From Eledone cirrhosa (Eukaryota): a stretch of DNA of 64,000 nt. The translations under genes and the position numbers were made by a program. How positions within the stretch are numbered: the stretch's first letter is position 1; every line of letters begins with the position of its first letter. A model generated the notes under the pieces. It saw nothing but the letters and a program-made list of their open reading frames with translations, was not told the DNA's origin and did no database searches. This document shows, piece after piece, positions 9,573-62,878 of this stretch. The stretch lies in NCBI GenBank assembly GCA_964016885.1, contig OZ024746.1:79856001-79920000 (forward strand), in the 5' to 3' direction.

Positions 9573-10646
9573 TGGATGTCGTTGTTTACAGCATGTTTTA
9601 CCCATCAATGCATTCTCAGTGTGAATCAATATTATGATATCAGTAAGGTCGCCTTGCTTTGTCTATTCTTGTGTTGAGTTACATACAGGTAGTCGGTAGT
9701 TCCGTTGTCTAGTGACTATATCAAACAGAAAAATAGTAAGGTCGGCCAGGTGAAGAAATAGGCCAGAGATCGGGGTTATTTCCTCTCTGACGAAAACCCC
9801 TAATCACTTTCTTCAACTACTACTTAATGCTTAATTTCCCATGAAACTCTTAAGTCATAAGCAAGAGAGTGAAGGGTAGGATTCGGGGCTTTTGTGCATT
9901 TTCATAAGACTATTATCGCAAGTTAAGCTGTTTCAATCTGGCGGAACAAAGAAGAAATTATCTAGTGTGTAGGAGAATGTCGAAATAATGAGCAAGATGG
10001 TGGAAACATATTAATCTAACCTAATGTTCTTTTGCTACAGCATCTTCAAAGGATTGGAAATTAATTTACTCACAATTAATTACCAAATTTCGGAGCTTTC
10101 ATCATATCACACGTTAAATTCTTGCTTTTGAAATATTACGTTGTTTTTTTTTTGTTTGTTTGTTTGTTTGTTATTGGTTTTGGTTTTGTGTTTGGTTTTG
10201 TTCTTTCTCGCCTTTGCTTTCGCTACAACTGCAAACAGTATTATCAACAGCAACACTGTTACCATCACCAACACTATCCCTATCTTCAGAAAACACCATC
10301 CCCACCAACAACACTATCACATCACTGACAGCAATACTATCACTATCTATGCTAACAGTATCAGCATCACCAACAACAACGCTATCACTGACATCAACAC
10401 ATCAATATTATCTGTACCACCAGCAATAACAACACTATCACTGATATTAACACTATTACCATCTTTATCAACATTATTTGCACCACTAACAATACCTTTT
10501 TCATCGACATAAATATTATCACCTCCTTCACAAACATTATCATCAATAATAACAACAATATTACCATTACCAACATTATCACAACCAAAACCTCTATCAC
10601 CGTCAACAAATCTATCCTTACAAACATTATTTTCACCATTAGTTGC

Positions 10647-10780
10647 GACCCTTTTACGTTCTGAGTTCAAATCCCGCCAAGGATAACTTTGTCTTTCATC
10701 CTTACGGGGTCGATAAAATAAAGTACCAGTAATGCACTGGGATAATTGCTGGCCTTGTGCCAAAAGCAGAAACAATTATT
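10647..10780 (+). mobile_element. SINE family 1, 5'-truncated
   Basis: Runs from B box to tail. Confidence 0.8.
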
Positions 10781-10915
10781 ATCACCATTAACACTATCAA
10801 CACTAACATTAACCCCCAGTCTTTATCCAGCAACAAATAAACATCATTCTTACCAACACCATCATCATATTCCACCTTTTTATTGACTTTGTCGTCGTCG
10901 CCACATCATCATCAA

Positions 10916-10947
<32 letters not shown>

Positions 10948-10954
10948 ACATCAT

Positions 10955-10987
<33 letters not shown>

Positions 10988-11087
10988 CATCGTCGTCACC
11001 ATCATCATCATCAACATCAACATCATCATCATCATCATCATTATCGTTTAGCTCAACGTTCTAATGATCTGCTAACCCACTGACCTA

Positions 11088-11800
11088 TAACGGTTTCTGG
11101 TTTAGGCACAAGGCCAACAAATTCCTGGGAGAGGAAAGTCGATTAAATCGACCCCAGTACGTTACTGGTACTTTATTCTATCGACCCCAAAAAGGATGAA
11201 AGTCAAAGCAATAACTTCGGCGGGATTTGACCTCAGAAAGTAAAGAACCAGAAAAATGCTGCTGTGCATTTGTTGAACGCCAATTCTGTGTGACTGGTAA
11301 TAATTGTTTCTACTTTTGGAACAAGGCCAGCAAAGACCCAGTACATTACTGGTACTTTATTTTATCGACCCGTAAGGATGAAAGTAAAAGTTAACCACAA
11401 CGTGATTTGAACTCAGACCATAAAGGGACGCATGGCGTCCGACCCTCTACCGATACTGCCAATTCACCATAATAATTGTTTCTACTTTTGGCACAAGGCC
11501 AGCAATTACACAATACATTACTGGTACTTTATTCTATCGACCCCGGAAGGATGAAAGGCAAAGTTAACCTCGGCGGGTTTTGAACTCAGATCACCATAAT
11601 AATGATTTCAGATTTAGGCAGAAGGCCAGCAATTTTAGAGGAGGAGAATGTCGATAAAATCGACCCCAGTACGTTACTGGTAGTTTGTTTTATCAACCCC
11701 AGAAATGTGGAAAGGCAAAGTTGACTTCGGCGGGATATGAACTCAGAACGTAAAAGGACAACTAAATGTTTGAAAGCCTTCTACCCGACGCTATCATCTG
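11088..11800 (-). mobile_element. Head-to-tail array of four SINE family 1 copies
   Basis: Repeated units start near 11088, 11298, 11470 and 11597. Confidence 0.85.
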
Positions 11801-13484: not shown

Positions 13485-13668
13485 TAGGTGGATTGGCAGT
13501 ATCGGTAGAGGGTCGGACGCCATGCTTTCAAGCATAGTTACGTCCCTTTACGATCTGAGTTCAAATCCCGCCGAGGTTGACTTTGCCTTTCATCCTTACG
13601 GGGTCGATAAAATAAAGTACCAGTAATGCACTGGGTAATTGCTGGCCTTGTGCCTAAAGTAGAAACAA
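13485..13668 (+). mobile_element. SINE family 1
   Basis: Near full-length match to the other copies. Confidence 0.85.
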
Positions 13669-13922
13669 GTATTGCTAGTATTGTTAGTATTGTTATTATT
13701 GTTCTGATTTAATGCCACTACTCTATATAGAAGCCATGCCTGTATATTTCCTTCATTCTCGCATGCTCTGATGAATTGACTGGTTATAACACAGTATTGG
13801 TGATCGATTGACGCAAAAACAGGCGGGTAACGATCTCTAGACCTACCAGTTCAGAGAAACAATTGTCAGCAATGTGAATAAAGCCCTTATTGTATAGCAA
13901 ACCATGTCACTCTTCTTTCTTG

Positions 13923-13969
<47 letters not shown>

Positions 13970-14152
13970 AATGGTAAAAGCGGAAGTGAATTAAGCTAAA
14001 TAAAGAGAGAGACAGAGAACTAGATGAGATATGTAAATAAAACACATATCCATCCATCTACTTTTATTAATAAAAACAATAAAAACAAAAATAACAGCAG
14101 CAACTCTCCCCACTAACACAAATACTCCCACCACCACTATCACCACCATCAA

Positions 14153-14378
14153 CTATAATGGTTTCTTATATAGGCACAAGGCCAGCAATTTTGGCGGGAG
14201 GGGAAAGTCGATTAAATCGACGCCAGTGCATTACTGGTACTTTATTTTATCGACCTCGTAAAGATGAAAGGCAAAGTTAAACTCGGCAGGATTTGAACTC
14301 AGATCATAAAGGGCCGTAACTCTATGCTGCAAAGCATGGCGTCAGACCCTCTACCTATACTGCCAATCCACTGCCCTA
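14153..14378 (-). mobile_element. SINE family 1, long variant
   Basis: Includes the internal gtcgattaaatcgac palindrome. Confidence 0.85.
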
Positions 14379-14971: not shown

Positions 14972-15024
14972 GAGATTCCTGATGATTTCTAAAGAATGAA
15001 ACAGTTCTAGTCCTGTAGAATCTC
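14972..15024 (+). ncRNA. Type I hammerhead ribozyme, family B (complete fold)
   Basis: Stem I GAGATTC/GAATCTC; CTGATGA 14979-85; stem II T-TTC-TAAA-GAA-T; GAAA 14998-15001; stem III CAG/CTG with a CTAG-containing loop; predicted GUA cleavage after 15017. Confidence 0.8.
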
Positions 15025-15105
15025 ATCTATATTAAAACTTTTTACTCTGCTATGTATTGAGTACCTTACTTACTGTGGTTACCTCCGATTCAACCCGGAA
15101 TAACT

Positions 15106-15221
<116 letters not shown>

Positions 15222-18564: not shown

Positions 18565-19305
18565 CCACTAACAACAACAACTACACCACTAACAACAACA
18601 ACAACAACAACACCAATAACAACAACACCAAATACATTACCAACAACAACAACACCACCACTAACAACAACAACACCACCAAATACATTACCAACAACAA
18701 TTACCTCCCAGTGCATTACTGGTACTTTATTTTATCGATCCTGTAAGGATGAATGGCAAAGCTAACCTCGGCGGGATGTGAACTCAGACCGTAAAGGGAC
18801 GTAACTCTATGCGGCAAAGCCTCGTGTCCAACTATTAATGTTTGGTGGTGTAGCAACTGATGATGGTGATGGTATTTGTTGTTGTTGATGGTGATGATGG
18901 CTTTTTTATTGTTGTTTCTCATGATGATAATGATAATTGTTTCTACTTTTGGCACAAGGCCAGCAATCACCCCAGTACATCACTGGTACTTTATTTTGTC
19001 GACCTCGTAAGGATGAATAGCAAAGCTAACCTCGCCGGGATTTGAACTCATGGTGATGATGGTATTGCTGTTGACGTTGCCATTGTTGTTATTTCCTTTG
19101 GTGTTGTTGTTGTTGTTGTTGTTGTTGCCATTGTTGTTGTTGTTGTTGTTGTTGTTGCCATTGTTGTTATTTCCTTTGGTGTTGTTGTTGTTGTTGTTGT
19201 TGTTGCCATTGTTGTTGTTGTTGTTGTTGTTGTTGCCATTGTTGTTATTTCCTTTGGTGTTGTTGTTGTTGTTGTTGTTGTTGCCATTGTTGTTATTTCC
19301 TTTAG

Positions 19306-19388
<83 letters not shown>

Positions 19389-19593
19389 GCAACGTCAACA
19401 GCAATACCATCATCACCATGAGTTCAAATCCCGGCGAGGTTAACTTTGCCATTCATCCTTACGAGGTCGATAAAATAAAGTACCAGTAATGCACTGAGGT
19501 AATTGCTGGCCTTGTGCCTAAAGTAGAAACAATTATCATCATCATCATCATCATCGTCATCATCATCACCATCATCATCACCATCATCATCAC

Positions 19594-20806: not shown

Positions 20807-20836
<30 letters not shown>

Positions 20837-20839
<3 letters not shown>

Positions 20840-21032
20840 GTAAGGAACCAGATGGACCATAACGTACCAAAGTACTAAATACTTAGGGTAGTAGAGTGGG
20901 TAATAGGAACGAGTAGGACCCCGACGGCTGAGCTCAAGCCGTTTCGACGGCTAATTCTGGACCAGAATTTACCGTCCAGATTTAGCCGTCGAAACGGCTT
21001 GAGCTCAGCCGTCGGGGTCCTACTCGTTCCTA
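20837..21032 (-). mobile_element. Family A fold-back element
   Basis: Inverted arms of about 60 bp (20903-20961 / 20975-21033) plus a left tail; followed by (TA)n. Confidence 0.8.
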
Positions 21033-21053
21033 TATATATATATAGATATATAG

Positions 21054-38963: not shown

Positions 38964-39446
<483 letters not shown>

Positions 39447-40050: not shown

Positions 40051-40352
40051 ATAATAATAAATGTGAAGACCAAAGAGGACTCGATAAGGATGAATATATA
40101 TCAAATATATAAGAACACAGAGCAAATATTTATTAAAATAACAGATTAAAGTTTAAGCAAATAATCGTTGCTTTCACCCTTAACGGGATCTTCTGAAACT
40201 AAAAATATCAATCTGTAAACGTCTTCCTGTTTTCCTTCGGTTCAACGTTTTTCGAAATATTTACTTCTGCGTTCACAGATCGATTTTTTTAGTTTCAGAA
40301 GATCCCGTTAAGAGTAAAAGCAGCTATTCTTTGCTTAAACTTTAATCTGTTT
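40048..40352 (-). mobile_element. Family E fold-back element
   Basis: Arms 40140-40222 / 40271-40351 plus a left tail; collapsed relative at 47608-47750 between (TA)n tracts. Confidence 0.75.
40150..40200 (-). ncRNA. Hammerhead-like motif, family E, with variant core CAGAAGA
   Basis: Minus strand AGTTT-CAGAAGA-T-CCC-GTTAA-GGG-T-GAAA-GCA-loop-TGC-TT-AAACT; all three stems form. Confidence 0.55.
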
Positions 40353-40652
40353 TACCCACACCGACATACGTTTCGAAACCCGGTCCGGCGACATGCCACT
40401 ACACTTTCGGGCCATATCTGGGACCTCCAAGATAATAATATAACTTACCATCTCACTTGGAGCTTACTGTCTGCAGCTAACTCTTACACGGGAGGACGCC
40501 ATCCGTGTAACTTATGCTCGGAGGAAACATTACAAATCCTGTTTACGAAGGATCAACTCCTAAACAAAAAAGACGAACTGGTAATTGCATGCAAACACAG
40601 ATTGCGGAAGGCTTACCTCGCCTTCAAACCCCCTAACGATCCGAGTGGGTAG
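40353..40652 (+). pseudogene. C-terminal GIY-YIG endonuclease region of a Penelope-like retroelement (5' truncated)
   Basis: Open frame without a start codon: YPHRHTFRNPVRRHATTLSGHIWDLQDNNITYHLTWSLLSAANSYTGGRHPCNLCSEETLQILFTKDQLLNKKDELVIACKHRLRK...stop at 40652. It fits the recalled PLE pattern HxxSF..LSxHIWxL..W..CxLC..E..LN..CxH. Confidence 0.8.
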
Positions 40653-45169: not shown

Positions 45170-45958
45170 TAGTGTAGAGGGTCGGAAGCCATTCTTTGAC
45201 GCATAGAGTTACGGCCCTTTCCATTCTGAATTCAAATCCCGCCATGGTTAACTTTACCTTTCATCATTACAGGGTCGATAAAATAAAGTACCAGTAATGC
45301 ACTGCGATAATTGCTGGCCTTGTGCCAAAAGTAGAAACAATTAATTTTAGTATCATTAAAACAAGGGGTATTTAGTTATGAGTCTTTATGCTCCGAATTA
45401 AAATCATGGCGAGTTCAAATTTGTATGTCATGTCAGCACCAATCAATTTCTGTAATCAATATAATCGACTATTCACTCTAAGCAATGTTTTTTGTCCTTG
45501 TGTCTATATATGAAATCTGTCCTATATATGAAATCTGTCCTATATATGAAATCATTATGTTCTTATCAAGTTGTTGTAATGTCGTCCAAATGTTTTGTTT
45601 ATTTTCTATTTAATAATTGTTTCTACTTTTGGCACAAGGCCAGCAATTATCCCAGTGCATTACTGGTACTTTATTTTATTGAAGTAAAGGGCCGTAACTC
45701 TAACGATACTGCCAATTCACCGCCCATTTCTATTTAATAATGATTTCTACTATAGGCACAAGGCCAGTAATTTGAGGGGAGGGGAAAGTCGATTAAATCG
45801 ACCCCAGTACGTTACTGGTGCTTTATTTTATCGACCCCGTAAGAATGAAAGGCAAAGTTAACCTCGACAGGATTTGAACCCATACTGTAAAGGGACGTAA
45901 CTCTATGCTGCAATGCATGGTGTCCGACTCTCTACCGATACTGCCATTCCACCGCCCT
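45170..45958. mobile_element. SINE family 1 copies (45170-45342 plus, 45610-45725 minus, 45735-45958 minus)
   Basis: Head and body motifs. Confidence 0.85.
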
Positions 45959-51181: not shown

Positions 51182-51381
51182 TAACGAAGGAAATGTGGTA
51201 AGGAACCAGGTGGACCATAACGCACCAAAGTACTCAATACTTAGGGTAGTAGAGTGGGTAATAGGAACCAGTAAGACCCCGACGGCTGAGCTCAAGCCGT
51301 TTCGACGGCTAATTCTGGACTGATGAGTCCAGAATTAGCCGTCGAAACGGCTTGAGTTCAGCTGTCGGGGTCTTACTGGTT

Positions 51382-51384
<3 letters not shown>
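51182..51384 (-). mobile_element. Family A fold-back element (PLE pseudo-LTR-like) in (TA)n
   Basis: About 75-nt tail plus inverted arms 51260-51320 / 51327-51384. Other copies: 4740-4853, 20837-21032, 21398-21497, 39463-39590, 41475-41535, 42717-42775, 50473-50527, 58568-58691. Confidence 0.8.
51320..51370 (+). ncRNA. Minimal hammerhead core, family A
   Basis: CTGATGA-G...C-GAAA-CGGCT-TGAGTTC-AGCTG-TC (other copies CGGCT-TGAGCTC-AGCCG-TC); predicted GUC cleavage after 51366. The 5' strand of stem I is lost at the fold-back. Confidence 0.65.
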
Positions 51385-57789: not shown

Positions 57790-57849
<60 letters not shown>

Positions 57850-57863
57850 TTTTAATATAGATG

Positions 57864-57914
57864 AGATTCTACAGGAATAGAACTGTTTCATTCTTTAGAA
57901 ATCATCAGGAATCT
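57864..57914 (-). ncRNA. Type I hammerhead ribozyme, family B (inverted arm)
   Basis: Reverse complement of the 58253 copy with one change in loop III. Confidence 0.75.
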
Positions 57915-58252
57915 GGCTTTCCAAAAATAAATGTTGTGGTATTTATATCTTTTCAGGTGGTAGGAGAGGGTGGCGAATGGGATGGGTGGAGGTCATTGGT
58001 TGAAAGAAAAGGGAATTCATTAAAAGCTAATTCTTTAAGGCTATCATTTATATTTAGAGTGACAAAGGCAGAAATAATTCTATAAACAAGTTCAGAATGG
58101 GGTGCCACTCCTTATTTTTAAGTTTCTCTTAGCTTAAGCTAATTTAATGAATTCCCTTTTCTTTCAACCACTGACCTCCACCCATCCCACTCCCCACCCT
58201 CACCTACCACCTGAAAAGATATAAATACCACAACATTTATTTTGGGAAAGCC

Positions 58253-58303
58253 AGATTCCTGATGATTTCTAAAGAATGAAACAGTTCTAGTCCTGTAGAA
58301 TCT
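58253..58303 (+). ncRNA. Type I hammerhead ribozyme, family B
   Basis: Core identical to the 14972 copy; stem I AGATTC/GAATCT. Confidence 0.8.
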
Positions 58304-58435
58304 CATCTATATTAAAACTTTTATACTCTGCTATGTATTGAGTACCTTACTTACTGTGGTTACCTCCGATTCAACCCGGAATAAGGTATATATATATATA
58401 TATATATATGTATATAAATATATATATATATATGC

Positions 58436-58520
<85 letters not shown>

Positions 58521-58913
58521 GTGTATGTATGAATATAAATATATATATAATATATATATATATATTTAACGAAGGAATTGTGGTAAGGAACCAGATGGAC
58601 CATAACGCACCAGAGTACTCAATACTTAGGTTAGTAGAGTGGGTAATAGGAAAAAGTATGAGCTCTGCCGTCGAGGTCATACTTTTTCCTATATATATAT
58701 ATTTATTTATATATATATATATGTGTGTGTGTGTGTATAAATATGTATGTATGCATTAATATATATATATATATTATTAGAAAGTGAGGTTTTTTTGCAA
58801 AATGAAAAATAACCGAGGTGTCCTACACGAGTGAAAGTATAAAGAAAAAAAGATGAAATCGAAAATGCAACTGGAGTCTTATTTTTAAAAAAATATATAT
58901 ATTTATTTGGTTC

Positions 58914-58949
58914 CTTTACCGGTTTCGCAGTTCTTCTGCTTCTCAAAAG
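58914..58949 (-). ncRNA. Hammerhead ribozyme, U3-A8 core variant (family H)
   Basis: Minus strand CTT-TTGAGAA-GCAG-AAGAA-CTGC-GAAA-CCGG-TA-AAG; palindrome ACCGGT; GUA triplet. Confidence 0.6.
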
Positions 58950-58979
58950 TAGAGTTGAGATGGAGGGTCTGTGGTTTTT

Positions 58980-59061
<82 letters not shown>

Positions 59062-61557: not shown

Positions 61558-61705
61558 GGGGGGAGGATGTGGTGAGTCCCGGGATCAATCGGGGGTAACC
61601 TCAGTAAGTAAGGTACTCAATACATTAGTAGAGTGCATTCAACAAATTTAATATAGAAATTGCTTCTAGAACTGTTTCATTCGAAGAAAATCACCAGGAA
61701 AGGCG

Positions 61706-61748
61706 TCCTGATGATTTTTGTCGAATGAAACAGTTCTAGTCCTGTAGA
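61706..61748 (+). ncRNA. Hammerhead ribozyme, family B subfamily
   Basis: CTGATGA-TTTTTGTCGAAT-GAAA-CAG-TTCTAGTC-CTG-TA; stem I is weak in this copy. Confidence 0.6.
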
Positions 61749-61926
61749 AGACATTTCTCTATTAAATTTGTTATGTATATATATATATATATATATATAT
61801 AGTTTATCCCGGGTTCAATCGGGGGTAACCACAGTAAGTAAGGTACTCAATACAAAGCAGAGTATACATATTTAATTTAGAAAGGCTTTTACAGGACTAG
61901 TACTGTTTCATTCGGGAGAAATCCTC

Positions 61927-61961
<35 letters not shown>

Positions 61962-61963
<2 letters not shown>

Positions 61964-62303
61964 AAGTGAGTTTTATTGTAGCACAATAAAGCAATGTAAA
62001 TATCGGATAAGTAGCACTCATCCTACAAACACACAGTTTGTAGGACAGGACTATAAATAATATAAGATCAAAAGATGGTTAAAAGAGTTCCAAGTATTTT
62101 ATTATGCGCATTTCAAAAACAAATATCAACACATATTTTGATTTAAAACTTCACTATTCACAAGTGTTTTTTAAGCTTCATATCATGTATCCCTATTTTA
62201 TTTGATGAAAACGCAGATATCATCCCATGATGATATTTGTTTTTGAAATGCGCATAATAAAATACTTGGAACTCTTTTAACCATCTTTTGATCTTATATT
62301 ATA
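61962..62303 (-). mobile_element. Family G fold-back element
   Basis: About 72-bp arms 62057-62128 / 62231-62302 plus a left tail after (TA)n. Confidence 0.7.
62227..62256 (+). ncRNA. Degenerate hammerhead-like core, family G
   Basis: ATGATGA-T...T-GAAA-TGCGCA-TA with palindrome ATGCGCAT; C3 and stems I and II are not intact. Confidence 0.35.
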
Positions 62304-62429
62304 TATACATACATGCACACATATATATATGTACGTATGGGTTTACCGAACATTTATTATAATGCCCGAATTAAGCCGTACAGTGTTCGGCAACCATCGT
62401 TGCCCTTTTGTTTAACACTGACAAAGGAA

Positions 62430-62470
62430 CGATGAACTAGTTTCAAGCTTATTAGCTATCGTCAGCATCG
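62430..62470 (-). ncRNA. Hammerhead ribozyme, family D
   Basis: Minus strand CGATG-CTGACGA-T-AGCT-AATA-AGCT-T-GAAA-CTAG-TT-CATCG; 5-bp stem I and palindromic stem III AACTAGTT. Confidence 0.8.
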
Positions 62471-62603
62471 TATACCTTCCTGTAAGATGATTGAACGTTT
62501 GAAAGTATATACTTTCCTTATGCATATTAACGGCTGAGCAGCCTAATTTGTATATCGAGTGAGTTAGTCGGCCGGGCGTACCCAAAACGTTAAATGGAAA
62601 AGA

Positions 62604-62640
62604 ATGCTGACGATAGCTAATAAGCTTGAAACTAGTTCAT
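62604..62640 (+). ncRNA. Hammerhead ribozyme, family D (other arm)
   Basis: ATG-CTGACGA-TAGCTAATAAGCTT-GAAA-CTAGTT-CAT. Confidence 0.75.
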
Positions 62641-62878
62641 CGTTCCTTTGTCAGTGTTGAACAAAGGGGCAACGATGGTTGCCGAACACTGTACGGCTTA
62701 ATTCGGGATGTTTGTTTACAAACAAACCGAACATTATAATAAATGTTCGGCAAACCCATACGTACATATATATATGTGTGCATGTATATATATATATACA
62801 TACTACTGTGCGTCTGTTTACATATATGTATGTACGTATACATACTTATATTTTTATATATATATATGTATATATATG

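What the first reader, a model, noticed from the sequence alone, without database searches (positions are those of the whole stretch)
57847..58386. Shared architecture: asymmetric fold-back with divergent ribozymes and a one-sided tail
Seen: families A (51182-51384, 20837-21032, 58568-58691), B (here and 61575-61773), D, E, F and G form inverted arms of roughly 20-180 bp. Only one arm continues into a 45-95 nt tail, while the other stops at a fixed point. In B and D both arms retain a full hammerhead, one per strand. Established: PLE insertions often carry an inverted partial pseudo-LTR lacking the 3' tail. Inference: these are footprints of one integration mechanism, and read-through from either strand would give a long hairpin or a self-cleaving RNA.
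Basis: partly seen in the sequence, partly recalled or inferred. Interest (0 to 1): 0.75.

Follow-up and report, generated by a model that had tools for sequence, protein, structure and literature searches.

The report
Two-armed Penelope retrotransposon insertion footprints
These hairpin-like repeats are head-to-head end pieces of Penelope-type jumping genes set in TA repeats, almost always one long end paired with one short end, which likely records a paired copying enzyme writing one RNA into both sides of a DNA break from two fixed start points.

Summary
Real, and a known hallmark of Penelope-like elements (PLEs). At 57848-58386 two 96%-complementary arms sit head-to-head in (TA)n, each with a hammerhead core; only one carries a 65-nt tail. 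Family B is the pseudo-LTR of a Hydra-type PLE with a 713-aa ORF; the window's subfamily looks non-autonomous.

The pairing rule is strict. All 49 inverted partners of short ends carried the tail, all 23 partners of tailed ends were short, and 72 of 76 family-A pairs were mixed. Arms share alleles (39 of 40 at one site). The tailless arm reaches further 5' in 13 of 49, which fold-back of a tail-primed cDNA cannot make. Four further coding PLE families or loci show the same rule.

Best reading: one RNA is likely reverse-transcribed from both sides of a break at two start sites, and the cDNAs are joined by microhomology. This extends published in vitro data. The divergent ribozymes look incidental; the claim fails at 61558-61775. 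No RNA data; this exact junction is not bridged by reads. The scan noted this pattern before on other DNA of this genome.

The parts
57794..57847 (.). (TA)n target tract, left
57848..58131 (-). Short (tailless) arm of family B, positions 228 to about 512 of natural reference copy L009; includes the central spacer 58025-58131
   Evidence: L001
57864..57914 (-). Type I hammerhead motif, core at 57908-57902, predicted cut after GUA at 57870
   Evidence: cut site inferred from hammerhead rules
58132..58142 (.). Junction insert of 11 nt that forms a small perfect palindrome with the end of the left arm
58143..58384 (+). Tailed arm of family B, reference positions 335-576; about 91% identical to the pLTR of the Hydra-type coding element L442
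58220..58225 (+). TATAAA box about 30 nt upstream of the position where many 5' ends of family arms cluster (likely transcription start)
   Evidence: promoter role inferred
58253..58303 (+). Type I hammerhead motif: helix I 6 bp, core CTGATGA 58259-58265, helix II 3 bp flanked by U.U, GAAA 58278-58281, helix III 4 bp, predicted cut after A58297
   Evidence: Rfam score below threshold
58320..58384 (+). One-sided tail between the short end and the long end
   Evidence: (loose ends behind 58319 and 58384)
58325..58343 (+). Bulged hairpin motif (ACTC-stem-loop-stem-TT-GAGT) at the start of the tail, shared with family A and others
58387..58507 (.). (TA)n target tract, right
51184..51383 (.). Family A two-armed copy, tail on the left; arms start inside helix II of the parent hammerhead
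20827..21033 (.). Family A two-armed copy, tail shortened
58568..58692 (.). Very short family A two-armed copy
61558..61775 (.). B-related two-armed copy; right hammerhead core intact, left core mutated and cleavage site deleted
61802..61930 (-). B-related solo tailed fragment
14973..15114 (+). Solo tailed family B piece starting at the 5'-end cluster just before the hammerhead
62300..62857 (.). Family D two-armed copy with minimal hammerheads (2-bp helix III); the family occurs as tandem, circularly permuted units elsewhere
39194..39444 (.). Family E two-armed copy, 40-47-nt tail; longer copies carry a tRNA-like segment
40048..40351 (.). Family F two-armed copy, tail on the left (78 nt)
61962..62307 (.). 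Family G two-armed copy, tail on the left (90 nt)
58778..58985 (-). Tailed 3' end of a coding Neptune-like PLE family (L139/L144)
   Evidence: BLAST covers 58836-58985

Best explanation
These repeats are head-to-head end pieces of Penelope-like elements and their non-coding dependants in (TA)n, and they likely form when a predicted dimeric RT-endonuclease cuts both strands and copies one RNA from both broken ends, one end starting at the long (tail) site and the other at the short site. Both cDNAs would run toward the RNA 5' end and stop at random or at the RNA start, and their 3' ends would be joined through 1-10 nt of microhomology or a short insert. If only one side is extended, a solo copy with either end results. 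Shown here: two fixed end classes, near-obligate long-plus-short pairing, shared alleles between arms, either arm longer, variable junctions, the same rule in coding copies, and B as the pLTR of a Hydra-type ORF. Inferred: the dimer, simultaneous priming, a single RNA molecule, the transcription start, and any role of the bulged hairpin or the ribozyme.
For: Short-end set: 90 loci listed in position order on contig C1, 2 near-duplicates dropped; 49 of 88 inverted, and 49 of 49 partners run to 575-582. Tailed-end set: 23 of 30 inverted, and 23 of 23 partners end at 504-517; 5 of these loci are also in the first set and two are near-duplicates of each other. By hand, with a 0.6/0.4 independent choice of end, the chance is about 1e-11 and 7e-10. 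Family A: 72 of 76 pairs mixed. The tailless arm reaches more than 10 nt further 5' in 13 of 49, the tailed arm in 5, and 31 are within 10 nt. Diagnostic site 465: 18 A/A, 21 T/T, 1 A/G, Fisher p 1.6e-11; within-locus distance 27/1461 = 0.018 against 0.054 between loci, also low (5/232) in the 3 scorable loci whose tailless arm is longer. Family A two-site alleles agree in 48 of 61 against 15.4 expected. Alleles private to one locus are shared by both arms in L030, L067 and L068. Coding copies: Hydra-type L430, L435/L436 and L439 are long plus short (3 of 3 resolved), as are L144, L150 and L394. In vitro, a lizard PLE cuts and extends both strands, starts RT at two internal sites that bracket the tail, and is predicted to be a dimer (PMC11167929). 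Raw reads of other samples show both ends running into TA (387 and 461 reads behind 58319, 257 and 305 behind 58384).
Against: 4 of 76 A pairs break the rule (3 tail-tail, 1 short-short), and 13 of 61 differ at a diagnostic site, so some arms come from two templates or changed later. The 31 near-equal and 5 tailed-longer B pairs fit fold-back equally well. In the older B subfamily, within-arm distance was close to between-locus distance in several loci, including the window's own (6/165 against 0.033). PMC11167929 saw no difference in start site between the two strands in vitro, so the asymmetry is not shown biochemically. Shared alleles could come from later conversion between arms. The cap-G test was inconclusive. 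The 39 'solo' copies are an upper bound, since a partner outside the reference is missed (L294), and one partner (L210) runs on into the coding leader so its outer end was not seen.
Confidence: 0.72

Rival explanations
1. Self-priming or fold-back: one strand snaps back at the junction and is copied back on itself, and the tail arises from where copying stops or from staggered endonuclease cutting of the open end (self-priming on an antisense template was proposed in PMC3846280).
For: Arms share alleles and private indels. Some junctions hold small palindromes, as at 58132-58142. Families A and E turn at nearly fixed centres.
Against: In 13 of 49 pairs the tailless arm extends further 5', which a tail-primed cDNA cannot template. 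18 of 39 solo short-ended copies reach the reference 5' end, so the short end forms without any partner. Two RT start sites on sense RNA are shown in vitro. The antisense-template version is not excluded by arm lengths alone.
Confidence: 0.14
2. Two separate events or two RNA molecules: independent copies meet head-to-head in the same TA tract or at one break, and the arms are later made alike by conversion.
For: TA tracts hold nested insertions throughout the loci. 13 of 61 A pairs are discordant, including a two-site mismatch in L038.
Against: No TA lies between most arms; junctions overlap or abut in 33 of 49. Independent events would not give 49 of 49 and 23 of 23 mixed ends.
Confidence: 0.08
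3. A few master palindromes are copied whole, as hairpin RNA or as foldback DNA transposons (MITE-like), and the centres then decay.
For: About 27 of 30 query-selected A copies are two-armed and some centres recur.
Against: Junction positions in B spread over reference 27-547 with different inserts. The outer ends are not terminal inverted repeats. Solo copies of both end types are common.
Confidence: 0.05
4. Assembly or library chimeras.
For: No read or contig spans this locus's own junction; no long reads were listed.
Against: Flanks differ on the two sides, arms differ by about 4%, and the ends are asymmetric at fixed sites. Head-to-head joints of the family stand in short-read contigs X1-X3 and in 2-3 raw reads each of X20-X22.
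Confidence: 0.01

Closest known systems
Canonical insertion structure of endonuclease-positive PLEs (PMC8557442, passages; PMC3846280, passages)
   Same: Adjoining inverted 5'-truncated copy, tail at one end only, partial tandems forming pLTRs, bias for (TA)n.
   Different: Tails here are 40-90 nt against 30-40 nt; the pairing rule and arm identity are counted here on unselected loci; most copies are non-coding.
Hydra clade of C-terminal EN+ PLEs (PMC8557442, section 11 and supplement rows)
   Same: Parent ORF P0001 has DKT, CxCX5C, CxxC and CxH motifs, no CCHH, a hammerhead in the pLTR and (TA)n targets.
   Different: RWR in place of RWK; unit about 5 kb because of a long TG-rich 3' region, against under 3 kb; no tree was built.
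Poseidon element of Anolis, PAc (PMC11167929, first two of four parts read)
   Same: Two internal start sites that bracket the tail near the pLTR-ORF junction; both strands cut and extended.
   Different: That paper reports no strand difference in start site and, in the parts read, does not link the two sites to the inverted arm; here the tail ends about 47 nt before the ATG, not inside the ORF.
Minimal hammerheads of PLEs (PMC4209133, first of four parts read) and non-LTR retrozymes (bioRxiv 10.64898/2026.07.22.740005, first part and passages)
   Same: Type I motifs in pLTRs; dual motifs 100-700 bp apart on opposite strands and the U3-A8 core variant are already reported; family D forms tandem units.
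   Different: Family B is not tandem; families E, F and G show the architecture with no hammerhead found by my pattern scan.
Twin priming of L1 (recalled; search listing only)
   Same: Priming from both target strands and microhomology at the inversion junction.
   Different: L1 arms come from different parts of the RNA and the second primer site is not fixed; here the arms overlap in sequence and both start sites are fixed.

Membership tests
PLE insertion footprint | Inverted 5'-truncated copy directly adjoining | tested here: met
   49 of 88 and 23 of 30 loci
PLE insertion footprint | Tail at one end only | tested here: met
   49 of 49, 23 of 23, 72 of 76; longer than the published 30-40 nt
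PLE insertion footprint | pLTR flanking an RT + GIY-YIG ORF in partial tandem | tested here: met
   B-like sequence on both sides of 713-aa ORFs in L426, L434, L442; not at the window locus itself
PLE insertion footprint | Target-site duplication | not testable with these tools
   both flanks are pure (TA)n
Hydra clade | DKT motif, CxCX5C linker, no CCHH, CxxC and CxH in the endonuclease | tested here: met
   read from P0001 against the definition
Hydra clade | RWK motif | tested here: inconclusive
   RWR in P0001
Hydra clade | Generally short, under 3 kb | tested here: not met
   about 5 kb from pLTR to pLTR in L442 and L434; a descriptive, not a defining, trait in the paper
Hydra clade | Placement in the RT phylogeny | not tested
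   no tree built; Pfam gave no hit for P0001
Type I hammerhead | Conserved core, NUH triplet and three helices | tested here: met
   both arms at 57848-58386; helix II is 3 bp flanked by U.U
Type I hammerhead | Rfam gathering score | tested here: not met
   Hammerhead_3 11.1 bits against 48.5, E 8; none
Type I hammerhead | Self-cleavage | not testable with these tools
   the hammerhead fold (-4.2 kcal/mol) is not the minimum-energy fold (-7.6); a few coding copies begin at reference 488, next to the predicted cut (L429, L432)
Non-LTR retrozyme | Tandem units each with a hammerhead | tested here: inconclusive
   not met for B; tandem permuted units seen for D
Non-LTR retrozyme | Circular RNA | not testable with these tools
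   no RNA run listed
MITE / foldback DNA transposon | Terminal inverted repeats at both outer ends, fixed length | tested here: not met
   outer ends differ by the tail; lengths and centres vary

The most novel reading that the evidence does not exclude
All endonuclease-bearing PLE clades integrate through a functionally asymmetric dimer that binds one RNA, places its two RT sites 40-90 nt apart, and copies the same RNA into both ends of a double-strand break; this one complex explains both the tail and the inverted arm, and it is hijacked by several non-coding riders, including a tRNA-headed SINE-like family (E) that would be mobilised by a PLE rather than a LINE.
Probability: 0.45. Interest if true: 0.72.

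Novelty: new member of a known kind. Interest (0 to 1): 0.5.

Why it matters
How PLEs make their inverted arm and one-sided tail is stated as open in PMC8557442 and PMC3846280. The counts here tie the two published RT start sites to the two ends of one insertion, and give a sharp bench prediction: paired ends use different start sites on the same RNA. Thousands of such hairpins are also a possible source of double-stranded RNA, which was not tested. The architecture itself, and hammerheads on opposite strands, are already in print.

Tried and rejected
Rfam over the whole window gave only microsatellite-driven miRNA matches among the 150 of 288 rows shown; hammerhead models stayed below threshold. 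MFE folds of single arms were not better than shuffles (z -1.1 to +0.5). The z of -32.8 for the whole locus only reflects the inverted repeat. My first guess of a Neptune-type partner for B failed: none of 46 GIY-YIG loci from the Pfam search carried the B end in sense behind the ORF. A first Hydra-type family (L357-L386) had an unrelated 3' region. 0 of 20 full-length copies of the window's B subfamily had a close ORF within about 6 kb upstream. The cap-G test was inconclusive: G before A445 in 6 of 17 tailed and 5 of 10 tailless stopped arms, with a loose classifier. Family G pairs ending at 47-54 come from the palindrome inside my reference and were ignored; 7 real pairs remain. Outer ends of 8 of the 9 coding inversions L387-L395 were not resolved. 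No RNA holder listed. The sequence look-up in earlier findings was blank. Paper searches for a published two-ended priming model of PLE inversions showed none in their listings; subscription journals are not covered. The search for SINEs mobilised by PLEs was read as a listing only. bioRxiv supplements are closed.

Full report
Observation. At 57848-58386 two arms of 183 nt, 96% complementary, lie head-to-head between (TA)n tracts. Each carries CTGATGA...GAAAC with a GUA triplet, on opposite strands. Only the right arm continues for 65 nt. Two details fail: the left arm at 61558-61775 has a mutated core and no cleavage site, and the right arm of D keeps only about 3 bp of helix I. The hammerhead is a motif-level call. 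Rfam scores it far below threshold and it is not the minimum-energy fold.

What family B is. The window lies in a 3.0-Gb genome. Against a natural 582-nt copy (L009), family copies end either at 504-517 or at 575-582 and then run into TA. Exact patterns for one short and one long end match 3083 and 4612 times, with 0 for reversed controls. After earlier notes of this scan pointed to the Hydra clade, I scanned my loci for its linker motif and followed one family. B-like sequence flanks its 713-aa ORF on both sides. The tail ends about 47 nt before the ATG, and a TATAAA box lies 30 nt upstream of the place where many arms begin. The protein has DKT, CxCX5C, CxxC and CxH motifs and no CCHH, as defined for Hydra. 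The window's right arm is about 91% identical to that pLTR and its tail is identical over the aligned part. None of 20 full-length copies of the window's subfamily had a close ORF upstream, so it is likely a non-autonomous derivative.

The pairing rule. I took 90 short-end loci from the first 100 listed in position order on C1 and dropped 2 near-duplicates. Of 88, 49 had an adjoining inverted partner, and all 49 partners ran to 575-582. One of them (L210) runs on into the coding leader, so its outer end was not seen. Of the first 30 tailed-end loci, 23 were inverted and all 23 partners ended at 504, 505, 509, 511 or 517; 5 of these loci are shared with the first set. In family A, 72 of 76 pairs were mixed, 3 were tail-tail and 1 short-short; that set includes copies selected by my query. 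F pairs were mostly 120/198 and G pairs 129/211-219. Coding elements follow the rule: three resolved Hydra-type inversions, two Neptune-like ones by linker motif (L144, L150) and one of a further family (L394).

Template and order. The two arms of a locus come from the same source. At site 465, 39 of 40 pairs agree across two common alleles, and arms differ by 0.018 within loci against 0.054 between. In A, 48 of 61 agree at two sites against 15.4 expected. Some loci share private alleles. Against this, 13 of 61 A pairs disagree, and the window's own arms are no closer to each other than to other copies. The tailless arm reaches more than 10 nt further 5' in 13 of 49 pairs, as it does at the window locus. 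A cDNA primed at the tail cannot template such an arm, and a short-primed cDNA cannot template the tail. Junctions overlap by 1-8 nt in 27 of 49, abut in 6 and hold inserts in 16.

Mechanism. Frangieh et al. (PMC11167929; first two of four parts read) show for a lizard PLE that both target strands are cut and extended, that RT starts at two internal sites bracketing the tail, and that a dimer is predicted. The simplest joining of that work with my counts is that each broken end is primed at a different site on one RNA and the two cDNAs are joined head-to-head. The many short hairpins whose arms both stop near 444-454 would be copies primed in the upstream pLTR that run off the RNA start. This is inferred, and the cap test was inconclusive. 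A bulged hairpin a few bases inside the tail is kept with different stems across families (counts include overlapping loci, no chance control) and may set the short start. Self-priming, proposed in PMC3846280 (passages), remains the main rival.

The ribozymes. Hammerheads sit about 20 nt upstream of the short end, so any arm longer than about 70 nt carries one. A read-through transcript holds one in sense and folds into a long hairpin over it. Dual hammerheads on opposite strands 100-700 bp apart are already described (PMC4209133, first part read). I see no sign that the divergent pair has a function of its own. No RNA run was listed.

Artefact check. No listed read or contig spans this locus's junction. 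Raw reads of other samples show both ends running into TA, and head-to-head joints of the family stand in short-read contigs and in a few raw reads. Unique flanks and fixed asymmetric ends also argue against chimeras.

Verdict. The architecture is a published PLE hallmark (PMC8557442, passages, section 11 and supplement rows), seen here in new families. The added value is the strict pairing rule with shared templates, which makes an open mechanistic question testable. My searches listed no paper stating this model, within the limits of the library. Earlier notes of this scan reached the same reading on other DNA of this genome; they are not independent support.

Noticed in passing
L181, L184, L194, L196, L200 (family of window 39194-39444): Longer copies of family E carry a tRNA-like segment (ARAGORN 5 of 5; Rfam tRNA 35.4 bits against 29 in L196) upstream of the two fixed ends, and sequence after the tail end leads back into the unit: a possible tRNA-headed SINE-like rider of a PLE. 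Partner not found.
   Followed up: partly
L028, L042 (bystander copies related to family A): Longer A-type copies show the missing 5' half of the hammerhead with a U3-A8 core and a long helix II; the U3-A8 variant is described in PMC4209133.
   Followed up: partly
L155-L179 (family D): Tandem, circularly permuted units of about 330 nt with a minimal hammerhead, retrozyme-like.
   Followed up: partly
window 40350-40649: Fragment of a Hydra-type endonuclease, 40% identical to P0001, directly beside family F.
   Followed up: no
window 4683 (-), 21178 (+), 27785 (+), 47438 (-): Further hammerhead-like motifs in other short repeats; the 21178 family forms two-armed copies elsewhere (L092).
   Followed up: no
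G000:C1:83680746-83691610 (L428): Tandem array of B-like pLTRs at about 1.08-kb spacing behind a Hydra-type ORF.
   Followed up: no
window 10644-11757, 13488-14371, 18695-19534, 45174-45935: A different dispersed repeat of about 150 nt occurs many times in both orientations and gives inverted pairs that are not part of this architecture.
   Followed up: no
L387-L394: Coding PLE inversions with arms of 1-3 kb at 97.4-99.9% identity, so very young large palindromes.
   Followed up: partly
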